The notes under the pieces are model-generated. The model did no database searches and was not told the DNA's origin. It worked only from the letters and a program-made list of their open reading frames with translations. Below, one piece after another: positions 4,112 to 8,773 of a DNA stretch of 10,027 nt (within the stretch, counting starts at the first letter, position 1; every line of letters starts with the position of its first letter). The stretch is from IMG/VR virus record IMGVR_UViG_3300015186_000054; one strand, written 5' to 3'. A program made the translations under genes and the position numbers. This DNA is from a virus (taxonomy: Duplodnaviria > Heunggongvirae > Uroviricota > Caudoviricetes).

Positions 4112-4696
4112 ATGAAAAGTATCCAGGACGTCCGCAGGCAAAATCTCAACGACTTGATCGACCGTGAATTCAATGGTGTTCAGACGCGGATGGCTGAAAA
4201 ACTTGGAACTCAGGCAAATCTGGTAAACCGCTGGGCTCTTGGCAAGAAGGTTATCGGCGACCAGGTTGCACGAAAAATTGAAGCTGCCGCCAATAAACCC
4301 CGTAACTGGCTTGATATCGATCGCTCGCTTTCTCAGGAAGGTTTTCAGCCTGTCGGCCCAAGCGACATTGGCCAGCTGGCGGCTCACAACCTGGAACGCT
4401 GGATGAGCGAAAGCCGCGACCTTTCAACACAGGGAAAACTTCACCGCGCATCCGGCGTAGCCCAGGTGACAATCAGCCGCCTGTTAAACAATGAGGTCAG
4501 CGTTTCCATTTCCACCCTGGAGAATGTTGCATCCGCATTCGGGCGTCACGGCTATGAATTACTGATTCACCCGCACGACCCTGCGACCATCAACTATGAT
4601 CGCTCGCGCTACGCATTGTTACCCGAAACCGAGAAAGCAAAGATCGAAAGTTACATTGAATTTGTCATCAACCAGAACGAAAAAAACAAACAATAA
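4112..4696 (+). CDS. prophage repressor (CI analogue) with two XRE-type HTH domains and no LexA/S24 peptidase domain
   Basis: 194-aa ORF. N-terminal HTH (GVQTRMAEKLGTQANLVNRWALGKKVIGDQVARKIEAAANKPRNWLD) and a second HTH-like segment (LHRASGVAQVTISRLLNNEVSVSISTLENVASAFG). No Ser/Lys autoprotease motifs. Divergent from the Cro-like gene, weak or no SD, followed by a strong intrinsic terminator. Confidence 0.7.
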   Translation: MKSIQDVRRQNLNDLIDREFNGVQTRMAEKLGTQANLVNRWALGKKVIGDQVARKIEAAANKPRNWLDIDRSLSQEGFQPVGPSDIGQLAAHNLERWMSESRDLSTQGKLHRASGVAQVTISRLLNNEVSVSISTLENVASAFGRHGYELLIHPHDPATINYDRSRYALLPETEKAKIESYIEFVINQNEKNKQ

Positions 4697-4716: not shown

Positions 4717-4743
4717 AAGCCGCCTTATGGCGGCTTTTTTATT
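4717..4743 (+). terminator. rho-independent terminator downstream of the repressor gene
   Basis: Stem AAGCCGCC (4717-4724), loop TTAT, stem GGCGGCTT (4729-4736), followed by a run of T residues. Confidence 0.8.
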
Positions 4744-4784: not shown

Positions 4785-4816
4785 CTATTGACATCAAACC
4801 ATATACGCATAATTAT
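4785..4816 (+). promoter_or_regulatory. putative sigma70 early-left promoter (pL analogue)
   Basis: -35 TTGACA at 4788-4793 (perfect consensus), 17-bp spacer, -10 AATTAT at 4811-4816. Flanked by operator dyads 19 bp upstream of the -35 and overlapping the -10. Confidence 0.55.
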
Positions 4817-4849: not shown

Positions 4850-5002
4850 ATGCAGTGGAAAATCATCAACGGTTGGTACTGCGTTACTGCATGCGGATTC
4901 ATGAGCTGGAAGTTCCGCACCTTACAGGAAGGCATTAAGTGGGCTTTCGTCAGCAAAGAAGCTCGCGATGTGGCCAACGATAACGAGATATGGGAGGGCT
5001 GA
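4850..5002 (+). CDS. hypothetical small protein (50 aa, Trp-rich), first ORF after the leftward early promoter
   Basis: Not in the ORF track (below size cut-off). ATG 4850 with SD GAGGT 9 nt upstream; TGA at 5000-5002. Translation MQWKIINGWYCVTACGFMSWKFRTLQEGIKWAFVSKEARDVANDNEIWEG. Coding status uncertain. Confidence 0.35.
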   Translation: MQWKIINGWYCVTACGFMSWKFRTLQEGIKWAFVSKEARDVANDNEIWEG

Positions 5003-5004
5003 TA

Positions 5005-5304
5005 ATGAACGTTAATCAGCAGAAAAATCTTCAAAAAATCATGCTGGCATTCGATAAGGACTACCGCCTGTCAGAACAGCTATATGACCGACAAGTTGAA
5101 CTGATTGAGAGCATCCGACTTCATCAACTGTCCTCAACTTTCGACGTTGTAACAGGCAAAGGCGTTCGTCAGGAAGTACTGGAGGCTGCTAAAGACAGCC
5201 CTGAGTTCGAAGAACTGATGGATGCCTACCGTCGCGAGGCAATGGCAATTATCGCCCGCTGGGATCTGGCTGATCAGATTGATGGGCAGAGGGACGCGGC
5301 ATGA
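5005..5304 (+). CDS. hypothetical phage protein (99 aa)
   Basis: Track ORF 4990..5304. I prefer ATG 5005 (MNVNQQKNLQ...) because SD GGAGG lies 7 nt upstream. Its stop overlaps the ATG of the exonuclease gene (ATGA). No family recognised. Confidence 0.55.
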   Translation: MNVNQQKNLQKIMLAFDKDYRLSEQLYDRQVELIESIRLHQLSSTFDVVTGKGVRQEVLEAAKDSPEFEELMDAYRREAMAIIARWDLADQIDGQRDAA

Positions 5305-6200
5305 TGCGGAACGCTGGAATCATGGATAGAACAAAATACATCGGAGGAAGCGATGTTGCAGGGATTCTTGGAATTAGCCCATGGCGCACCCCGCTTGAGG
5401 TTTATCTGGATAAGGTCCAGCCACGTGTCAAACCAGTAGACCCAAGCAAGCAGAAAGTTTTCACGCGTGGCCAGCGTATGGAGCCATACGTAATAGACCT
5501 GCTTTCTGAGGAAACAGGGATGGAAATCGTTCATCGCGGAAACCGCTATATCCACCGTGATTACGATTTTATTGCAGCTGAGATCGATGCAGAAGCAGCG
5601 TCAGGCGAGAACATTGAGATCAAAACAGTTAGTCCGTTCAAAGCCAAAGAATGGGGAGAAATCCAGACAGATGCAATTCCTGTGCATTACACGGCCCAGG
5701 CCATGCACGGGTTGATGGTTACAAACAAACAGGTATGCGTTTTCGGTGTGCTTATCGGTGGCGACGACTTCCGAATCTATCGGGTTGAGCGTGATGAAGA
5801 AACTATCCAGGCGATCTTAGAAAAAGAAATCGCTTTCTGGGACCGAGTGAAAAATCTTAACCCGCCGGAAGCTACCAGCGTAAGCGATGTATCGCTGATG
5901 TTTGAGAAAGATGCCGGGACAAGTATCGAGGCTGACGGAAAGGCACTCGCACTATTCAACGATCTACGAGACATGAAGTCACGCAGAAAATCACTGGAAG
6001 AAGAAATAGCTATATCAGAAGAGAAGCTGAAGATGTACATGCAAGAGCACTCAGTCCTGACCCTGGACGGAAAGCCGCTCTGCACATGGAAATCTCAGAT
6101 CAGCAACAGATTCGACCAGAAGCTATTCCAGTCAGTACACCCTGAGTTATTCGAAAAATTCAAAACAACAACGACACAACGCGTCTTCAGAATGAAGTAA
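5301..6200 (+). CDS. YqaJ/lambda-Exo-type phage exonuclease (recombination partner of RecT)
   Basis: 299-aa ORF. N-terminal KYIGGSDVAGILGISPWRTPLEVYL is the characteristic YqaJ viral-recombinase-domain signature. Immediately upstream of a RecT gene. SD AGAGGGA upstream. Confidence 0.85.
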   Translation: MMRNAGIMDRTKYIGGSDVAGILGISPWRTPLEVYLDKVQPRVKPVDPSKQKVFTRGQRMEPYVIDLLSEETGMEIVHRGNRYIHRDYDFIAAEIDAEAASGENIEIKTVSPFKAKEWGEIQTDAIPVHYTAQAMHGLMVTNKQVCVFGVLIGGDDFRIYRVERDEETIQAILEKEIAFWDRVKNLNPPEATSVSDVSLMFEKDAGTSIEADGKALALFNDLRDMKSRRKSLEEEIAISEEKLKMYMQEHSVLTLDGKPLCTWKSQISNRFDQKLFQSVHPELFEKFKTTTTQRVFRMK

Positions 6201-6209
6201 GGAGAAAAA

Positions 6210-7232
6210 ATGTCTATCAATGCACTTAAGGCAGCGGCTACCGGTAACCAAGTTGCACATCATAATGAGAAACCAACAACTCTGGCCGGACTTCTGGCAG
6301 ACCCAAAAATTAAAGCTCAGATGGCTTTGGCACTTCCAAAGCACATGACAGCAGACCGTCTGGCGCGCATAGCAACCACAGAGATCCGAAAGGTTCCAAA
6401 ACTTGCATCATGCGACCAAGCCAGCTTCCTGGGGGCAATTATGCAATGTGCCCAATTGGGTCTTGAACCAGGCGGAGCTCTTGGACACGCTTACCTGATA
6501 CCGTTCGACAAACGCCAGAAAGTAAATGGAAGATGGGAAACCGTATCTACAGAAGCACAGCTGATTATCGGCTATCGCGGAATGATTGACCTTGCCCGCC
6601 GCTCTGGGCAGATCCTGAGTATCTCGGCTCGTACCGTACATACAAACGACAAATTCAGCTACTCATACGGCCTGGAAGAAACGCTCGAGCATTTACCTTG
6701 CGAAACAGGTGACCGCGGAGAATTAACGCACGTTTACGCCGTTGCACGACTGAAAGATGGCGGAGTCCAATTTGAAGTTATGAGCCGGGCAGACGTTGAG
6801 AAAGTTCGTGCACTGAGCAAAGCCGGTAGCAGTGGCCCATGGGTTGATCACTTCGATGAGATGGCTAAAAAAACAGTAATTCGCCGACTGTTCAAATATC
6901 TTCCTGTTTCTATTGAAATGCAGAAGGCTGTTGTTATGGATGAGCGCGCTGAAGCTGGACTTAGCCAAGATAACGCAGCTGTTATCACTGGTGAATATTC
7001 CGTAGTTGACGATGAGCGTCAACACCTATCGCCAATTTCAGATTCAGAACGAGAAGAAGCTCGAGAATATATCATCGCGATACTTAATAGCCTGGATCCA
7101 TCTGCTGAAGATGCAAAAACGATGTTCAAGCGCGCTGAAAATGAAATTAACACCATGGCTGACAAGCTCGGTGATGAATATCACCAAAAATTCATGATGA
7201 CGCTTAACGATATGCGTCCAGAATTCGAGTAA
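6210..7232 (+). CDS. recT: RecT-family single-strand annealing recombinase
   Basis: 340-aa ORF. GHAYLIPFDKRQKVNGRWETVSTEAQLIIGYRGMIDLARRSGQI matches the RecT/Red-beta core as recalled. SD AAGGAG 6 nt upstream of ATG 6210. Confidence 0.9.
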   Translation: MSINALKAAATGNQVAHHNEKPTTLAGLLADPKIKAQMALALPKHMTADRLARIATTEIRKVPKLASCDQASFLGAIMQCAQLGLEPGGALGHAYLIPFDKRQKVNGRWETVSTEAQLIIGYRGMIDLARRSGQILSISARTVHTNDKFSYSYGLEETLEHLPCETGDRGELTHVYAVARLKDGGVQFEVMSRADVEKVRALSKAGSSGPWVDHFDEMAKKTVIRRLFKYLPVSIEMQKAVVMDERAEAGLSQDNAAVITGEYSVVDDERQHLSPISDSEREEAREYIIAILNSLDPSAEDAKTMFKRAENEINTMADKLGDEYHQKFMMTLNDMRPEFE

Positions 7233-7240
7233 CCACCACC

Positions 7241-7259
7241 GCGGCGCCACGCGCGCCGC
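7241..7259 (+). other. GC-rich hairpin between recT and the AlpA-like gene (no U-tract)
   Basis: GCGGCGC (7241-7247), loop CACGC, GCGCCGC (7253-7259): perfect 7-bp G/C stem, not followed by a T-run. Confidence 0.4.
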
Positions 7260-7281
7260 ACTGCAACCAAGAGAGGTATTT

Positions 7282-7530
7282 ATGAAAGGTGCATTAGGTA
7301 AGAAGGAACTCCTGGCGGTGGTGCCACTGTCATGGAGCACTATCGACCGTATGGAGCGCGCAGGGGAATTTCCTAAACGCTGGTATATCACCGATAAACG
7401 CTGCGCATGGAACCGTGATGAAGTTGAGCGTTGGCTTGATGAACGTCAGGCAGCAAGCCCGGCAGAGTTCCAGGGTAAAAAACCTCCTGTTCAGCAACGT
7501 GTATATCGTCCCGTGAGCAACGCGGCATGA
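7282..7530 (+). CDS. AlpA/Xis-family DNA-binding protein (excisionase or transcriptional regulator)
   Basis: 82-aa ORF. LLAVVPLSWSTIDRMERAGEFPKRWYITDKRCAWNRDEVERWLDERQ is the typical AlpA/phage-excisionase pattern. SD GAGAGG upstream. Confidence 0.75.
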   Translation: MKGALGKKELLAVVPLSWSTIDRMERAGEFPKRWYITDKRCAWNRDEVERWLDERQAASPAEFQGKKPPVQQRVYRPVSNAA

Positions 7531-7643
7531 GTGTGCTGCTAAGGCACTGGAGCAAATGGTCAGGATGGTACTTATTCCTGGCCTCTGTTTCTGCATGGCT
7601 TTATCTGCTGGCATTAATTTTCAGAGAGGGTTGGATTAAGTGA
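7527..7643 (+). CDS. hypothetical 38-aa single-pass membrane peptide
   Basis: Not in the ORF track. ATG 7527 overlaps the AlpA stop (ATGA) and its TGA at 7641-7643 overlaps the GTG start of the next gene (GTGA). Translation MSVLLRHWSKWSGWYLFLASVSAWLYLLALIFREGWIK has one hydrophobic Trp-flanked segment. Coding status inferred from the double coupling. Confidence 0.35.
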   Translation: MSVLLRHWSKWSGWYLFLASVSAWLYLLALIFREGWIK

Positions 7644-7939
7644 GAAAGTTAAGCCGACTTGATAAATATCACATGAACAAGGTTTCAATGCGCAGCCCTT
7701 CAAAGGTTGTTGCCGTTACTCCTGCGGCGATAGAGATCGAAAAACGCGCGATTGAAAGAGAGAAAAAAGGGCAATTCCGCATTGCCGCTCACCTTTGGCT
7801 TCAGTGTATGGATGTTGCTTCTGGTGATGTTGAACGTGCAAGGATCGCGGTTCGCAGGGACCAATGTATCACAAAAAGTAACGGCCTTCGCCGTGGCGAC
7901 TATAGCGGCATAGGATGTTGCGGGGTGGTTTATGACTAA
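7640..7939 (+). CDS. hypothetical small protein, possibly ANR-family regulator-like
   Basis: Track ORF 99 aa, GTG start with a purine-rich stretch (AGAGAGGG) about 10 nt upstream. EREKKGQFRIAAHLWLQCMDVASGDVERARIAVRRDQC resembles my memory of the ANR-family pattern found downstream of alpA in P4-like elements; unverified. Confidence 0.5.
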   Translation: MRKLSRLDKYHMNKVSMRSPSKVVAVTPAAIEIEKRAIEREKKGQFRIAAHLWLQCMDVASGDVERARIAVRRDQCITKSNGLRRGDYSGIGCCGVVYD

Positions 7940-8582
7940 GAAATACACACTAATCTATGCAGATCCACCCTGGGTATACCGGGATAAAGCCGCAGATGGT
8001 AATCGCGGTGCCGGTTTTAAATATCCGGTTATGAGTGTGCTGGATATCTGCCGCCTTCCTGTGTGGGATTTGGCCGATGAAAACTGTCTATTGGCCATGT
8101 GGTGGGTGCCAACACAACCACTCGAAGCACTAAAAGTTGTTGAAGCCTGGGGATTCCGTCTGATGACCATGAAGGGCTTCACGTGGATAAAATGTGGTAG
8201 TCGACAACCAGATAAACTGGTTATGGGTATGGGACACATGACTCGCGCCAATAGTGAAGATTGCCTGTTTGCGGTAAAGGGAAAACTACCTCCGCGCATT
8301 AATGCAGGTATCGTTCAGTCATTTACCGCACCGCGGCTTGAGCATTCAAGAAAACCAGATGTCGTTCGTGAAAAACTTGTGCAATTATTAGGCGATGTTT
8401 CTCGCATTGAACTGTTCGCCCGCCAGACGTCTCATGGCTTCGATGTTTGGGGTAATCAGTGCGAAGACCCGGCAGTGCAACTACACCCTGGATACGCGTT
8501 GGATATTGGCGGATTAACAAATGCATTCAGCAATGCTCCGCTGTCACCAACAGACAACCAGGGGCGGGAGCGTGCTGCATGA
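7932..8582 (+). CDS. MT-A70-family DNA N6-adenine methyltransferase, orphan (no restriction partner in window)
   Basis: 216-aa ORF. N-terminal LIYADPPWVY (DPPW catalytic motif) followed by CLLAMWW and GFTWIK, typical of MT-A70-like methyltransferases. ATG 7932 overlaps the upstream stop by 8 nt; SD GGGGTGG. Confidence 0.85.
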   Translation: MTKKYTLIYADPPWVYRDKAADGNRGAGFKYPVMSVLDICRLPVWDLADENCLLAMWWVPTQPLEALKVVEAWGFRLMTMKGFTWIKCGSRQPDKLVMGMGHMTRANSEDCLFAVKGKLPPRINAGIVQSFTAPRLEHSRKPDVVREKLVQLLGDVSRIELFARQTSHGFDVWGNQCEDPAVQLHPGYALDIGGLTNAFSNAPLSPTDNQGRERAA

Positions 8583-8773
8583 ACAGGGCATCACCAGCAG
8601 ATTTAAGAAAATGCCTTGAAACTGCAAACATGCTTGCACACAGCGGGATCAGGTTTGTTCCAATTCCCGCTGTCACTGATGCTGAATTTGCAACACTGTC
8701 AGCAATATTCGAAAACAAAATTGAATCACTGGCAGCAGAAGCAGAGATGGAAGAAAATCAGCAGAACTATTAA
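8579..8773 (+). CDS. hypothetical phage protein (64 aa)
   Basis: Track ORF 8459..8773. I prefer ATG 8579 (MNRASPADLRK...), which overlaps the methyltransferase stop (ATGA) and has GGGAG upstream. Ends 3 bp from the integrase stop. Confidence 0.5.
   Translation: MNRASPADLRKCLETANMLAHSGIRFVPIPAVTDAEFATLSAIFENKIESLAAEAEMEENQQNY

What the first reader, a model, noticed from the sequence alone, without database searches (positions are those of the whole stretch)
7527..7643. Unannotated 38-aa hydrophobic peptide coupled between the AlpA-like and ANR-like genes
The ORF is below the track cut-off but has start and stop codons overlapping both neighbours and encodes one Trp-flanked transmembrane-like segment. 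Small phage membrane peptides are often Kil-like division inhibitors, toxins or exclusion factors.
Basis: partly seen in the sequence, partly recalled or inferred. Interest (0 to 1): 0.45.

Follow-up and report, generated by a model that had tools for sequence, protein, structure and literature searches.

The report
Conserved phage membrane micro-gene (ε15 gp32)
The 38-codon reading frame is a real, conserved gene for a one-helix membrane peptide of epsilon15/phiV10-type prophages; reference phage genomes already annotate it as gp32/gp35, bacterial annotation pipelines skip it, and nobody has tested what it does.

Summary
The ORF at 7527..7643 (+) exists exactly as described. It has an ATGA overlap with the AlpA-like gene and a GTGA overlap with the next gene. 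It encodes 38 aa with five Trp and one hydrophobic helix (residues 16-32).

A 38-codon ORF alone is unremarkable, but comparison shows it is coding:
- It is the only one of six frames open in all 39 distinct DNA versions.
- pN/pS is 0.28-0.31, like its neighbours (AlpA 0.21, PerC 0.30). The other two forward frames give 1.3-1.4.
- Relatives down to about 40% identity sit in the same slot with 4-nt overlaps at both ends.

The window is the repressor-controlled early operon of a phiV10/epsilon15-like (Uetakevirus) prophage. The peptide is phiV10 gp35 / epsilon15 gp32 / PHROG 17484 "membrane protein", so it is already annotated in phage records. PGAP E. coli genomes leave the gap empty.

The family is tiny: about 8 clusters among 1.84 billion representatives, and 35 of 50,697 phage records. 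It has no Pfam, NCBIfam, PADLOC, PDB or literature match.

The downstream gene is PerC-family; its ANR match is below cut-off.

Function is untested. The best guess is an N-in/C-out inner-membrane microprotein made by translational coupling after derepression, acting on a host membrane target. The Kil/toxin/exclusion idea is neither supported nor refuted.

The parts
7527..7643 (+). Gene for the 38-aa single-helix membrane microprotein (phiV10 gp35 / epsilon15 gp32 family, PHROG 17484)
   Evidence: ORF found. PHROG 17484 match E 4.7e-27 over 38 of 38 positions. Open in 39/39 distinct DNA versions. pN/pS 0.28-0.31. Annotated in phage records.
7572..7622 (+). Codons 16-32, the predicted transmembrane helix LFLASVSAWLYLLALIF
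   Evidence: Hydropathy and Hessa scale. AlphaFold2 gives one helix, residues 2-36.
7527..7530 (+). ATGA overlap: stop of the AlpA-like gene and start of the peptide (translational coupling inferred)
   Evidence: All 175 loci have TGA one base after the first base of the peptide's start codon; the start is ATG or GTG depending on clade.
7640..7643 (+). GTGA overlap: stop of the peptide and start of the PerC-family gene
   Evidence: ATGA in 91 and GTGA in 82 of 175 loci. PGAP starts PerC here.
7513..7517 (+). Weak Shine-Dalgarno-like GTGAG, 9 nt before the peptide's ATG, inside the conserved AlpA C-terminal codons
   Evidence: Sequence. Upstream 25 nt compared across loci: GTGAG, GTAAG or GTTGG at this place. 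A weak match only; function inferred.
7623..7630 (+). AGAGAGGG, Shine-Dalgarno-like, 9 nt before GTG 7640. It is formed by the peptide's conserved Arg33-Glu34-Gly35 codons.
   Evidence: Sequence. GAR GGN is kept in all clades with wobble variation. The same AGAGAGG precedes the AlpA-like gene at 7270-7276.
7282..7530 (+). AlpA-family (excisionase/regulator-like) gene, upstream partner in the invariant gene trio
   Evidence: Pfam PF05930, 24.2 bits against cut-off 21. PHROG 66 'excisionase and transcriptional regulator'.
7640..7939 (+). PerC-family transcriptional-activator gene, downstream partner in the trio
   Evidence: Pfam PF06069, 31.3 bits against cut-off 22.6. PHROG 868 over 99 of 99 positions. 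ANR_neg_reg is below cut-off.
4788..4816 (+). Promoter-like site (TTGACA-17-AATTAT). It follows the repressor gene 4112..4696 and the terminator-like hairpin 4717..4736, and is the probable early promoter of the operon 4990..8773 that contains the peptide.
   Evidence: a consensus match only. Repressor gene identified. The epsilon15 record places repressor operators at the equivalent position.

Best explanation
The ORF is a real protein-coding gene: the phiV10 gp35 / epsilon15 gp32 microprotein of Uetakevirus-type temperate podophages.

Shown:
- It is conserved as a reading frame under purifying selection as strong as on its neighbours.
- It always lies between the AlpA-type and PerC-type genes, with 4-nt start/stop overlaps.
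- It encodes one hydrophobic helix between a basic, Trp-rich N-terminal stretch (RHWxKWSGW) and a short (E/D)GW(I/L)(K/R) tail.

Inferred:
- It is transcribed only when the phage repressor is off, from the early promoter near 4790-4816, as part of the exo-recT-alpA-peptide-perC-methylase operon.
- It is translated by termination-reinitiation coupling from the AlpA cistron, and it passes ribosomes on to PerC.
- It inserts in the inner membrane N-in/C-out, by the positive-inside rule.
- It acts there during induction or infection by packing its helix (small residues A19/S20/S22/A23/A29) against a host inner-membrane protein.

My single best functional guess is a transient block of an envelope process such as cell division, in the manner of small single-pass inhibitors. 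That guess carries only about 25% probability. The confidence figure below refers to the core claim (a real, conserved, membrane-type microprotein gene of this known family, expressed with the early operon).
For: Frame:
- Open in 39/39 distinct DNA versions drawn from 169 loci; no other frame is open in all.
- Variable sites by codon position are 14, 13 and 26.
- Pooled pN/pS is 0.28 in this frame. It is 1.41 and 1.30 in the other forward frames and 1.06 and 1.38 in two reverse frames. The wobble-sharing antisense frame gives 0.37.
- Codon-aligned over 137 haplotypes: AlpA 0.21, peptide 0.31, PerC 0.30.
- Within clades, about 10 different DNA sequences encode the identical peptide.
- The Gly35 codon uses all four wobble bases.

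Unbiased sampling: 36 phage records found through the AlpA protein. Of these, 35 carry a full-length peptide match and the 36th has a 32-aa variant.

Distant members: P0004, P0005 and P0009 are 42-63% identical to the window peptide. All sit between AlpA and PerC with 4-nt overlaps.

Family: PHROG 17484, E 4.7e-27. Annotated as a membrane protein in phiV10, epsilon15, Tyrion and SPN1S.

Membrane character.

Operon context: repressor, terminator-like hairpin, promoter-like site, and no promoter-like site near the peptide. The epsilon15 operator annotation agrees.
Against: - There is no direct evidence of translation, membrane insertion or any phenotype; none could be obtained here and no paper addresses it.
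- Most IMG/VR loci were retrieved with peptide-derived patterns, which favours intact copies. This is offset by the AlpA-anchored phage set.
- Part of the C-terminal conservation (R-E-G codons = AGAGAGGG) may serve as the ribosome-binding site of PerC rather than the peptide itself.
- The charge bias for topology is weak in the E. coli, Salmonella and Klebsiella forms: N flank net +1 to +2 against C flank net +1.
- One phage (BUCT554) has a shortened 32-aa form without the C-terminal motif. Two lineages carry deletions that destroy the gene, so it is dispensable at least in resident prophages.
- No similarity to any known division inhibitor, toxin or exclusion protein.
Confidence: 0.85

Rival explanations
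1. The micro-ORF is mainly a cis-acting translational relay. Its job is to carry ribosomes from the AlpA cistron to the PerC cistron and fix their ratio. It also holds PerC's ribosome-binding site. The peptide itself would be of secondary or no importance.
For: - 4-nt overlaps at both ends in 173 of 175 loci.
- The peptide's own Shine-Dalgarno match is weak.
- The conserved Arg-Glu-Gly codons spell AGAGAGGG 9 nt before the PerC start, the same motif that precedes AlpA.
- In BUCT554 the peptide is truncated and PerC is uncoupled but still has GAGAGG before it.
Against: - A relay needs only an open frame. Here the amino-acid sequence is constrained as strongly as in PerC (pN/pS 0.31 against 0.30).
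- Hydrophobic helix length, the WSGW motif, W24 and G35-W36 persist down to about 40% identity, with synonymous changes at wobble sites.
- The two roles are not exclusive.
Confidence: 0.1
2. The stretch is not a separate gene but the 5' part of a longer PerC gene, as annotated in Salmonella phage 66FD and Klebsiella phages BUCT711 and ST512-KPC3phi13.3 (123-128 aa, starting at MVRMV...).
For: The PerC frame is open across the stretch in 28 of 39 distinct sequences. Three records annotate the long form.
Against: - That frame has pN/pS 1.30 across the stretch.
- It carries a stop in the remaining 11 of the 39 distinct sequences. These include the window and phiV10, where the stop lies just before GTG 7640, and Tyrion and Pseudocitrobacter, where it lies further upstream.
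- PHROG 868 is 99 positions long and aligns end to end with the short form.
Confidence: 0.02
3. It is a lysogen-expressed moron: a superinfection-exclusion factor or a Hok/TisB-type type I toxin that benefits or stabilises the prophage.
For: - The size and single hydrophobic helix resemble such peptides (background knowledge, not tested).
- PHROGs files the family under 'moron, auxiliary metabolic gene and host takeover', a label derived only from 'membrane protein'.
Against: - It lies in the middle of the repressor-controlled early operon and overlaps the genes on both sides.
- There is no promoter-like site of its own on either strand near it.
- There is no Rfam antisense RNA or toxin-associated RNA.
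- There is no Pfam, NCBIfam or PADLOC toxin or defence model match.
- Its base composition and synteny are those of the core operon rather than of a variable cargo slot. The variable slot lies further downstream, next to int.
Confidence: 0.06
4. It is a chance ORF in a non-coding spacer, conserved only because the DNA or RNA is constrained (for example by RNA structure or regulatory sites).
For: A 38-codon ORF is common by chance: 36 ORFs of at least 30 aa lie in 2.3 kb. PGAP does not call it.
Against: - Substitutions concentrate at third positions of this frame only.
- Length, start and stop are kept across E. coli, Salmonella, Klebsiella, Enterobacter and Pseudocitrobacter phages at 65-80% peptide identity.
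- No Rfam match.
Confidence: 0.02

Closest known systems
phiV10 gp35 (PhiV10p35, YP_512290.1) / epsilon15 gp32 (AAO06095.1) / SPN1S_0036 / Tyrion gp33; PHROG 17484 'membrane protein'
   Same: It is the same gene. The window peptide is 97% identical to phiV10 gp35 and 79% to epsilon15 gp32 and Tyrion gp33. All have the same 117-nt length, the same slot between AlpA and PerC, and the same overlaps.
   Different: Only one residue differs from phiV10 (V3 for A3). The family has a predicted helix in its annotation notes but no tested function.
Small single-pass membrane division inhibitors induced by SOS or phage: Caulobacter SidA (29 aa), Bacillus YneA, Staphylococcus SosA, phage SPP1 gp56 (named from background knowledge)
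   Same: They are very small and consist of one transmembrane helix plus short flanks. They are made only on induction or infection, and are thought to act by helix-helix contact with an inner-membrane partner. This describes how the peptide might work. It does not place the peptide in that group.
   Different: There is no sequence relationship, and no model hits in Pfam or NCBIfam. The periplasmic tail is only about 6 residues. No phenotype is known, and the target is entirely hypothetical.
Lambda Kil / Rac KilR / P22 Kil (early-left-operon division inhibitors next to the recombination genes; named from background knowledge)
   Same: A small early gene in the leftward operon, close to the exo / single-strand-annealing genes.
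   Different: Kil proteins are soluble FtsZ-directed proteins without a transmembrane helix. There is no sequence similarity. Here the gene is locked between AlpA and PerC rather than beside gam or cIII.
Type I toxins (Hok/Gef, TisB, Ldr, Ibs, ShoB)
   Same: Size and a single hydrophobic helix.
   Different: The peptide has no own promoter, no antisense RNA signal and no family match. It is embedded in an operon with overlaps on both sides.

Membership tests
epsilon15 gp32 / phiV10 gp35 family (PHROG 17484) | Full-length sequence match to the family profile | tested here: met
   phrog_17484 E 4.7e-27, residues 1-38 on profile positions 1-38 of 38. 97% identity to phiV10 gp35 and 79% to epsilon15 gp32.
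epsilon15 gp32 / phiV10 gp35 family (PHROG 17484) | Position between the AlpA-family and PerC-family genes of a Uetakevirus-type early operon, with 4-nt overlaps | tested here: met
epsilon15 gp32 / phiV10 gp35 family (PHROG 17484) | One predicted C-terminal transmembrane helix | tested here: met
   Residues 16-32, Hessa sum -1.9 kcal/mol, mean KD 2.28. AlphaFold2 single helix 2-36. This is prediction only; membrane insertion is not testable here.
Kil-type phage division inhibitors (lambda Kil, Rac KilR) | Sequence membership in a Kil family model | tested here: not met
   No Pfam, NCBIfam or other PHROG family matched the peptide.
Kil-type phage division inhibitors (lambda Kil, Rac KilR) | Expression causes filamentation or blocks Z-ring or divisome function | not testable with these tools
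   Needs inducible expression and microscopy.
Type I toxin-antitoxin peptides (Hok, TisB, Ldr, Ibs, ShoB) | Family model match, plus own promoter and a cis/trans antisense RNA | tested here: not met
   No protein model match. No promoter-like site on either strand near 7400-7700. No Rfam match at E up to 1 in the whole window.
Known anti-phage defence / superinfection-exclusion proteins | Match to a PADLOC model; expression from the repressed prophage | tested here: not met
   No PADLOC hit for the peptide, three distant homologues or either neighbour. The gene lies inside the repressor-controlled operon. Expression in lysogens was not measured.
Holins / antiholins | Located in the lysis cassette next to endolysin and spanins | tested here: not met
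   In phiV10 the endolysin and Rz/Rz1 genes lie beyond the integrase gene, on the other strand. The peptide lies in the early recombination/regulation operon.
   23.7 bits against cut-off 32. The gene does pass Pfam PerC PF06069, 31.3 against 22.6, and PGAP names it PerC family.

The most novel reading that the evidence does not exclude
The peptide could be a new class of phage host-takeover microprotein. It would be a 38-aa single-pass inner-membrane peptide, made stoichiometrically with an excisionase-like regulator and a PerC-type activator through a three-cistron coupling chain. It would bind a specific host inner-membrane machine (divisome, FtsH, or the DNA-entry route of superinfecting podophages) at the moment of prophage excision. 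A more exotic variant is that its co-translational membrane insertion tethers the polycistronic mRNA and so controls PerC synthesis.
Probability: 0.2. Interest if true: 0.5.

Novelty: already known. Interest (0 to 1): 0.22.

Why it matters
Practically, this is a clear case of a real, selected gene that standard bacterial annotation (PGAP) drops. The homologous stretch is present in 556 of 5,426 complete E. coli genomes, and all 20 records listed in the search output (one of them read in full) show no gene there. Some phage records also swallow it into an over-long PerC.

Biologically, it is a narrowly distributed, strictly syntenic membrane microprotein of a well-studied phage group (epsilon15, phiV10, SPN1S/SPC32H) whose role nobody has tested. 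A simple deletion or over-expression experiment could add a new small membrane effector, or show that it is a translational relay.

It does not overturn anything and does not open a long-standing question.

Tried and rejected
Padded with the two in-frame upstream residues, it returned only 3 clusters.
It worked with alignments, but the best 80 loci per scan were near-identical.
- The genome-contig scan with the AlpA alignment gave only 3 loci. One of them is a 399-bp low-coverage 'Paraburkholderia' contig that is probably contamination.
- The profile search of 1.84 billion representatives found only 8 hits. One (P0006, 1367 aa) is a spurious hydrophobic-segment match.
- Pfam, NCBIfam, PADLOC, PDB sequence and Rfam searches all gave nothing for the peptide or the stretch.
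- Literature searches by phage names, locus tags, accession, PHROG id and peptide substrings found no study of this gene.
- AlphaFold2 gives only the expected single helix. I did not run a fold search, because a lone helix would match anything.
- Rejected: the long-PerC reading, the 94-aa minus-strand ORF 7330..7614 (pN/pS 1.38 in its frame) and the antisense 'shadow' frame. The shadow frame's pN/pS of 0.37 is a by-product of shared wobble positions, and that frame has a stop in 11 of 39 versions, including the window.

Full report
**1. The observation**

The ORF is present exactly as described: 7527..7643 on the + strand, ATG start, 38 codons, product MSVLLRHWSKWSGWYLFLASVSAWLYLLALIFREGWIK.
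- Its ATG shares ATGA with the TGA stop of the upstream 82-aa gene (7282..7530).
- Its TGA shares GTGA with GTG 7640, the first possible start of the downstream 99-aa ORF (7640..7939).

A 38-codon ORF is not remarkable in itself: 36 ORFs of at least 30 aa overlap the surrounding 2.3 kb. Everything therefore depends on comparative evidence.

**2. Context**

The window is the immunity and early region of a phiV10/epsilon15-like (genus Uetakevirus) temperate podophage integrated in an enterobacterial chromosome. The 721 bases around the ORF occur at 95% identity or more in 539 of the 559 matching records (556 of 5,426 complete E. coli genomes carry a match). They also occur at 77-98% identity in 36 phage records from Escherichia, Salmonella, Klebsiella and Enterobacter hosts.

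The gene order on the + strand is:
- repressor (4112..4696)
- terminator-like hairpin (4717..4736)
- promoter-like site TTGACA-17-AATTAT (4788..4816)
- PHROG 856 gene
- RecE-like exonuclease
- RecT
- a GC hairpin without a U-tract (7241..7259)
- AlpA-family gene
- the peptide
- PerC-family gene
- MT-A70 methyltransferase
- DUF1382

A P4-type integrase is convergent on the - strand.

The epsilon15 record places repressor operators just after the repressor gene. No promoter-like site lies near the peptide on either strand. I therefore infer that the peptide is expressed with the early operon only when the repressor is inactive.

The downstream neighbour is PerC family (Pfam 31.3 bits against cut-off 22.6). 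Its match to NCBIfam ANR_neg_reg is below cut-off (23.7 against 32).

**3. It is already an annotated phage gene**

Phage records annotate the same 117-nt ORF:
- phiV10: PhiV10p35, 'membrane protein; one C terminal transmembrane helix predicted'
- epsilon15: gp32
- Enterobacter phage Tyrion: gp33
- SPN1S: SPN1S_0036

The peptide matches PHROG 17484 'membrane protein' over all 38 positions (E 4.7e-27).

RefSeq/PGAP E. coli chromosomes leave the 109-nt gap empty and start PerC at the GTG.

Other records are inconsistent. 66FD, BUCT711 and ST512-KPC3phi13.3 extend PerC upstream through the peptide region. phiV10 RefSeq starts PerC at a later ATG.

**4. Is the frame really coding?**

I collected 169 copies: 9 anchored on DNA or the AlpA protein, and 160 from IMG/VR. 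They give 39 distinct DNA versions but only 14 distinct peptides. Within the Klebsiella, Salmonella and E. coli clades, up to ten different DNA sequences encode the identical peptide.

Frame openness:
- The peptide frame is open in 39/39 versions.
- No other frame is open in all.
- The PerC frame is open in 28/39 and carries a stop in the other 11, which include the window, phiV10, Tyrion and the Pseudocitrobacter prophage.

Variable sites fall 14, 13 and 26 on codon positions 1, 2 and 3.

| Frame | Pooled Nei-Gojobori pN/pS |
|---|---|
| Peptide frame | 0.28 |
| Forward offset 1 | 1.41 |
| Forward offset 2 (PerC frame) | 1.30 |
| Reverse offset 0 | 1.06 |
| Reverse offset 1 (wobble-sharing shadow frame) | 0.37 |
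| Reverse offset 2 (frame of the 94-aa ORF 7330..7614) | 1.38 |

The shadow frame's low value is an expected artefact of shared wobble positions.

With codon alignments of 137 haplotypes, the peptide (0.31) is as constrained as AlpA (0.21) and PerC (0.30).

An unbiased sampling check also holds. Of the 36 phage records found through the AlpA protein, 35 have a full-length peptide match. No record outside this group among 50,697 has one. The 36th, Enterobacter phage BUCT554, has an annotated 32-aa variant that lacks the C-terminal motif and is no longer overlapped by PerC.

It was tested and the ORF passes.

**5. Size and shape of the family**

A profile search of 1.84 billion representative proteins found only 8 hits at E up to 1e-3. 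Three are distant full-length members:
- P0004: MTAVTRHWQKWSGLYWYLAGIAAWMYLIAAIFTQDGWLK
- P0005: MSTLTRHWKRWSGWYVYLAAVFAWLTLLGVILTTEGWLK
- P0009: MIAAIRNRITKCAGWMIFLGAVAAWLALLAAVLTTEGWLK

They are 55%, 63% and 42% identical to the window peptide. Each lies between an AlpA-family and a PerC-family gene with 4-nt overlaps on both sides, while other operon genes differ (Dam against MT-A70, DUF1317, DUF7740).

Across 175 loci, the peptide/PerC junction is ATGA in 91 and GTGA in 82.

Conserved features:
- N-terminal basic residues
- W11-S12-G13-(W14)
- L18
- A23-W24
- L27, A29, I31
- G35-W36

**6. Physical character**

- The best hydrophobic segment is residues 16-32 (Hessa sum -1.9 kcal/mol, mean Kyte-Doolittle 2.28). 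Equivalent segments exist in all members.
- AlphaFold2 predicts one continuous helix, residues 2-36 (pLDDT 79).
- The N flank carries 2-3 Lys/Arg. The C flank carries 2 in the close forms and 1 (net 0) in the distant ones. The positive-inside rule therefore favours N-in/C-out, with a tail of about 6 residues in the periplasm. This is inference, and it is weak for the E. coli form.

**7. Translation signals**

- AlpA has a good Shine-Dalgarno (AGAGAGG, 7270-7276, 5 nt before its ATG).
- The peptide has only a weak one (GTGAG, 7513-7517, 9 nt upstream). The equivalent bases are GTAAG or GTTGG in other clades.
- The peptide's Arg33-Glu34-Gly35 codons spell AGAGAGGG (7623-7630), 9 nt before the PerC start. 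GAR-GGN is kept in every clade while the wobble bases vary.

The simplest reading is a chain of three coupled cistrons. Part of the C-terminal conservation may be shared between the peptide and the PerC ribosome-binding site.

**8. What it does**

Nothing is known.
- No Pfam, NCBIfam, PADLOC or PDB-sequence match for the peptide or three distant homologues.
- No Rfam family in the window.
- No paper mentions the gene by locus tag, accession, PHROG id or sequence, or discusses it in phiV10, epsilon15, ZX5 or SPC32H work.

From anatomy alone I favour an early, induction-time inner-membrane microprotein that acts by helix packing on a host membrane protein. A transient division or envelope block of the SidA/YneA/SosA/SPP1-gp56 type is the most likely single option, at about 25%.

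A mainly cis-acting relay role is the most serious rival, at about 10% as an exclusive explanation; it is quite likely as an additional role. A lysogen-expressed exclusion factor or type I toxin is disfavoured by the operon position and the lack of its own promoter or antisense RNA. The long-PerC and chance-ORF readings are effectively refuted.

**9. Verdict**

The gene is already known (annotated in reference phage genomes and in PHROGs) but functionally uncharacterised. Interest is low to moderate: a useful annotation correction and a cheap experimental target, not a surprise.

Noticed in passing
L087 1475-1858; L088 1484-1852; L090 1484-1852: Three phage records (Salmonella 66FD, Klebsiella BUCT711 and ST512-KPC3phi13.3) annotate an over-long PerC gene (123-128 aa) starting inside the peptide region, and omit the peptide. 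That frame has pN/pS 1.30 there, so the long form is probably a mis-annotation.
   Followed up: yes
window 7640 vs 7672; L001 3434: phiV10 RefSeq starts its PerC-family gene at a later ATG (89 aa). The GTG/ATG 4-nt overlap is conserved across clades, and PHROG 868 aligns end to end with the 99-aa form, so the upstream start is more likely. PGAP uses it.
   Followed up: partly
L085 (K. pneumoniae ATCC 13883 prophage) about 1746 onward; protein P0008: Two separate lineages carry an internal deletion that joins the first 25-30 codons of the peptide out of frame to the middle of PerC. This gives 70-75-aa chimeric ORFs. It may be a recurrent deletion in decaying prophages; the breakpoints were not analysed.
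   Followed up: partly
L089 1446-1544 (Enterobacter phage BUCT554): A divergent 32-aa form of the peptide ends before the (E/D)GW(I/L)K motif. PerC there starts 14 nt downstream instead of overlapping, but is still preceded by GAGAGG.
   Followed up: partly
window 7241-7259: A seven-base-pair all-GC hairpin (GCGGCGC/GCGCCGC) without a U-tract lies between RecT and the AlpA-like gene. The epsilon15 record labels the equivalent as 'stem-loop; transcriptional pausing'. Its fold z-score is only -1.6.
   Followed up: partly
window 7270-7276 and 7623-7629: The same heptamer AGAGAGG serves as the Shine-Dalgarno-like element before the AlpA-like gene and, inside the peptide's Arg-Glu-Gly codons, before the PerC-family gene.
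   Followed up: partly
window 8579-8773; L178 2840-3499; L002 4549-4731: The slot between the methyltransferase and the integrase is variable cargo. It holds DUF1382 in the window and phiV10, a Ser/Thr phosphatase in E. coli WP8-S17-ESBL-12, the O-acetylase repressor in epsilon15, and DUF7740 and others in distant relatives.
   Followed up: no
L091 1201-1461 (phage TL-2011b): The AlpA-like gene is broken (36-aa ORF, with an ambiguous base in the record) while the peptide ORF downstream is intact. This could be a sequencing error or a real disruption.
   Followed up: no
L086 (399-bp contig labelled Paraburkholderia sp. EG287B, coverage 0.9): This contig carries a 100% identical copy of the first 62 residues of the E. 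coli-type AlpA-like protein. It is almost certainly contamination of that assembly rather than a Burkholderiales phage.
   Followed up: no
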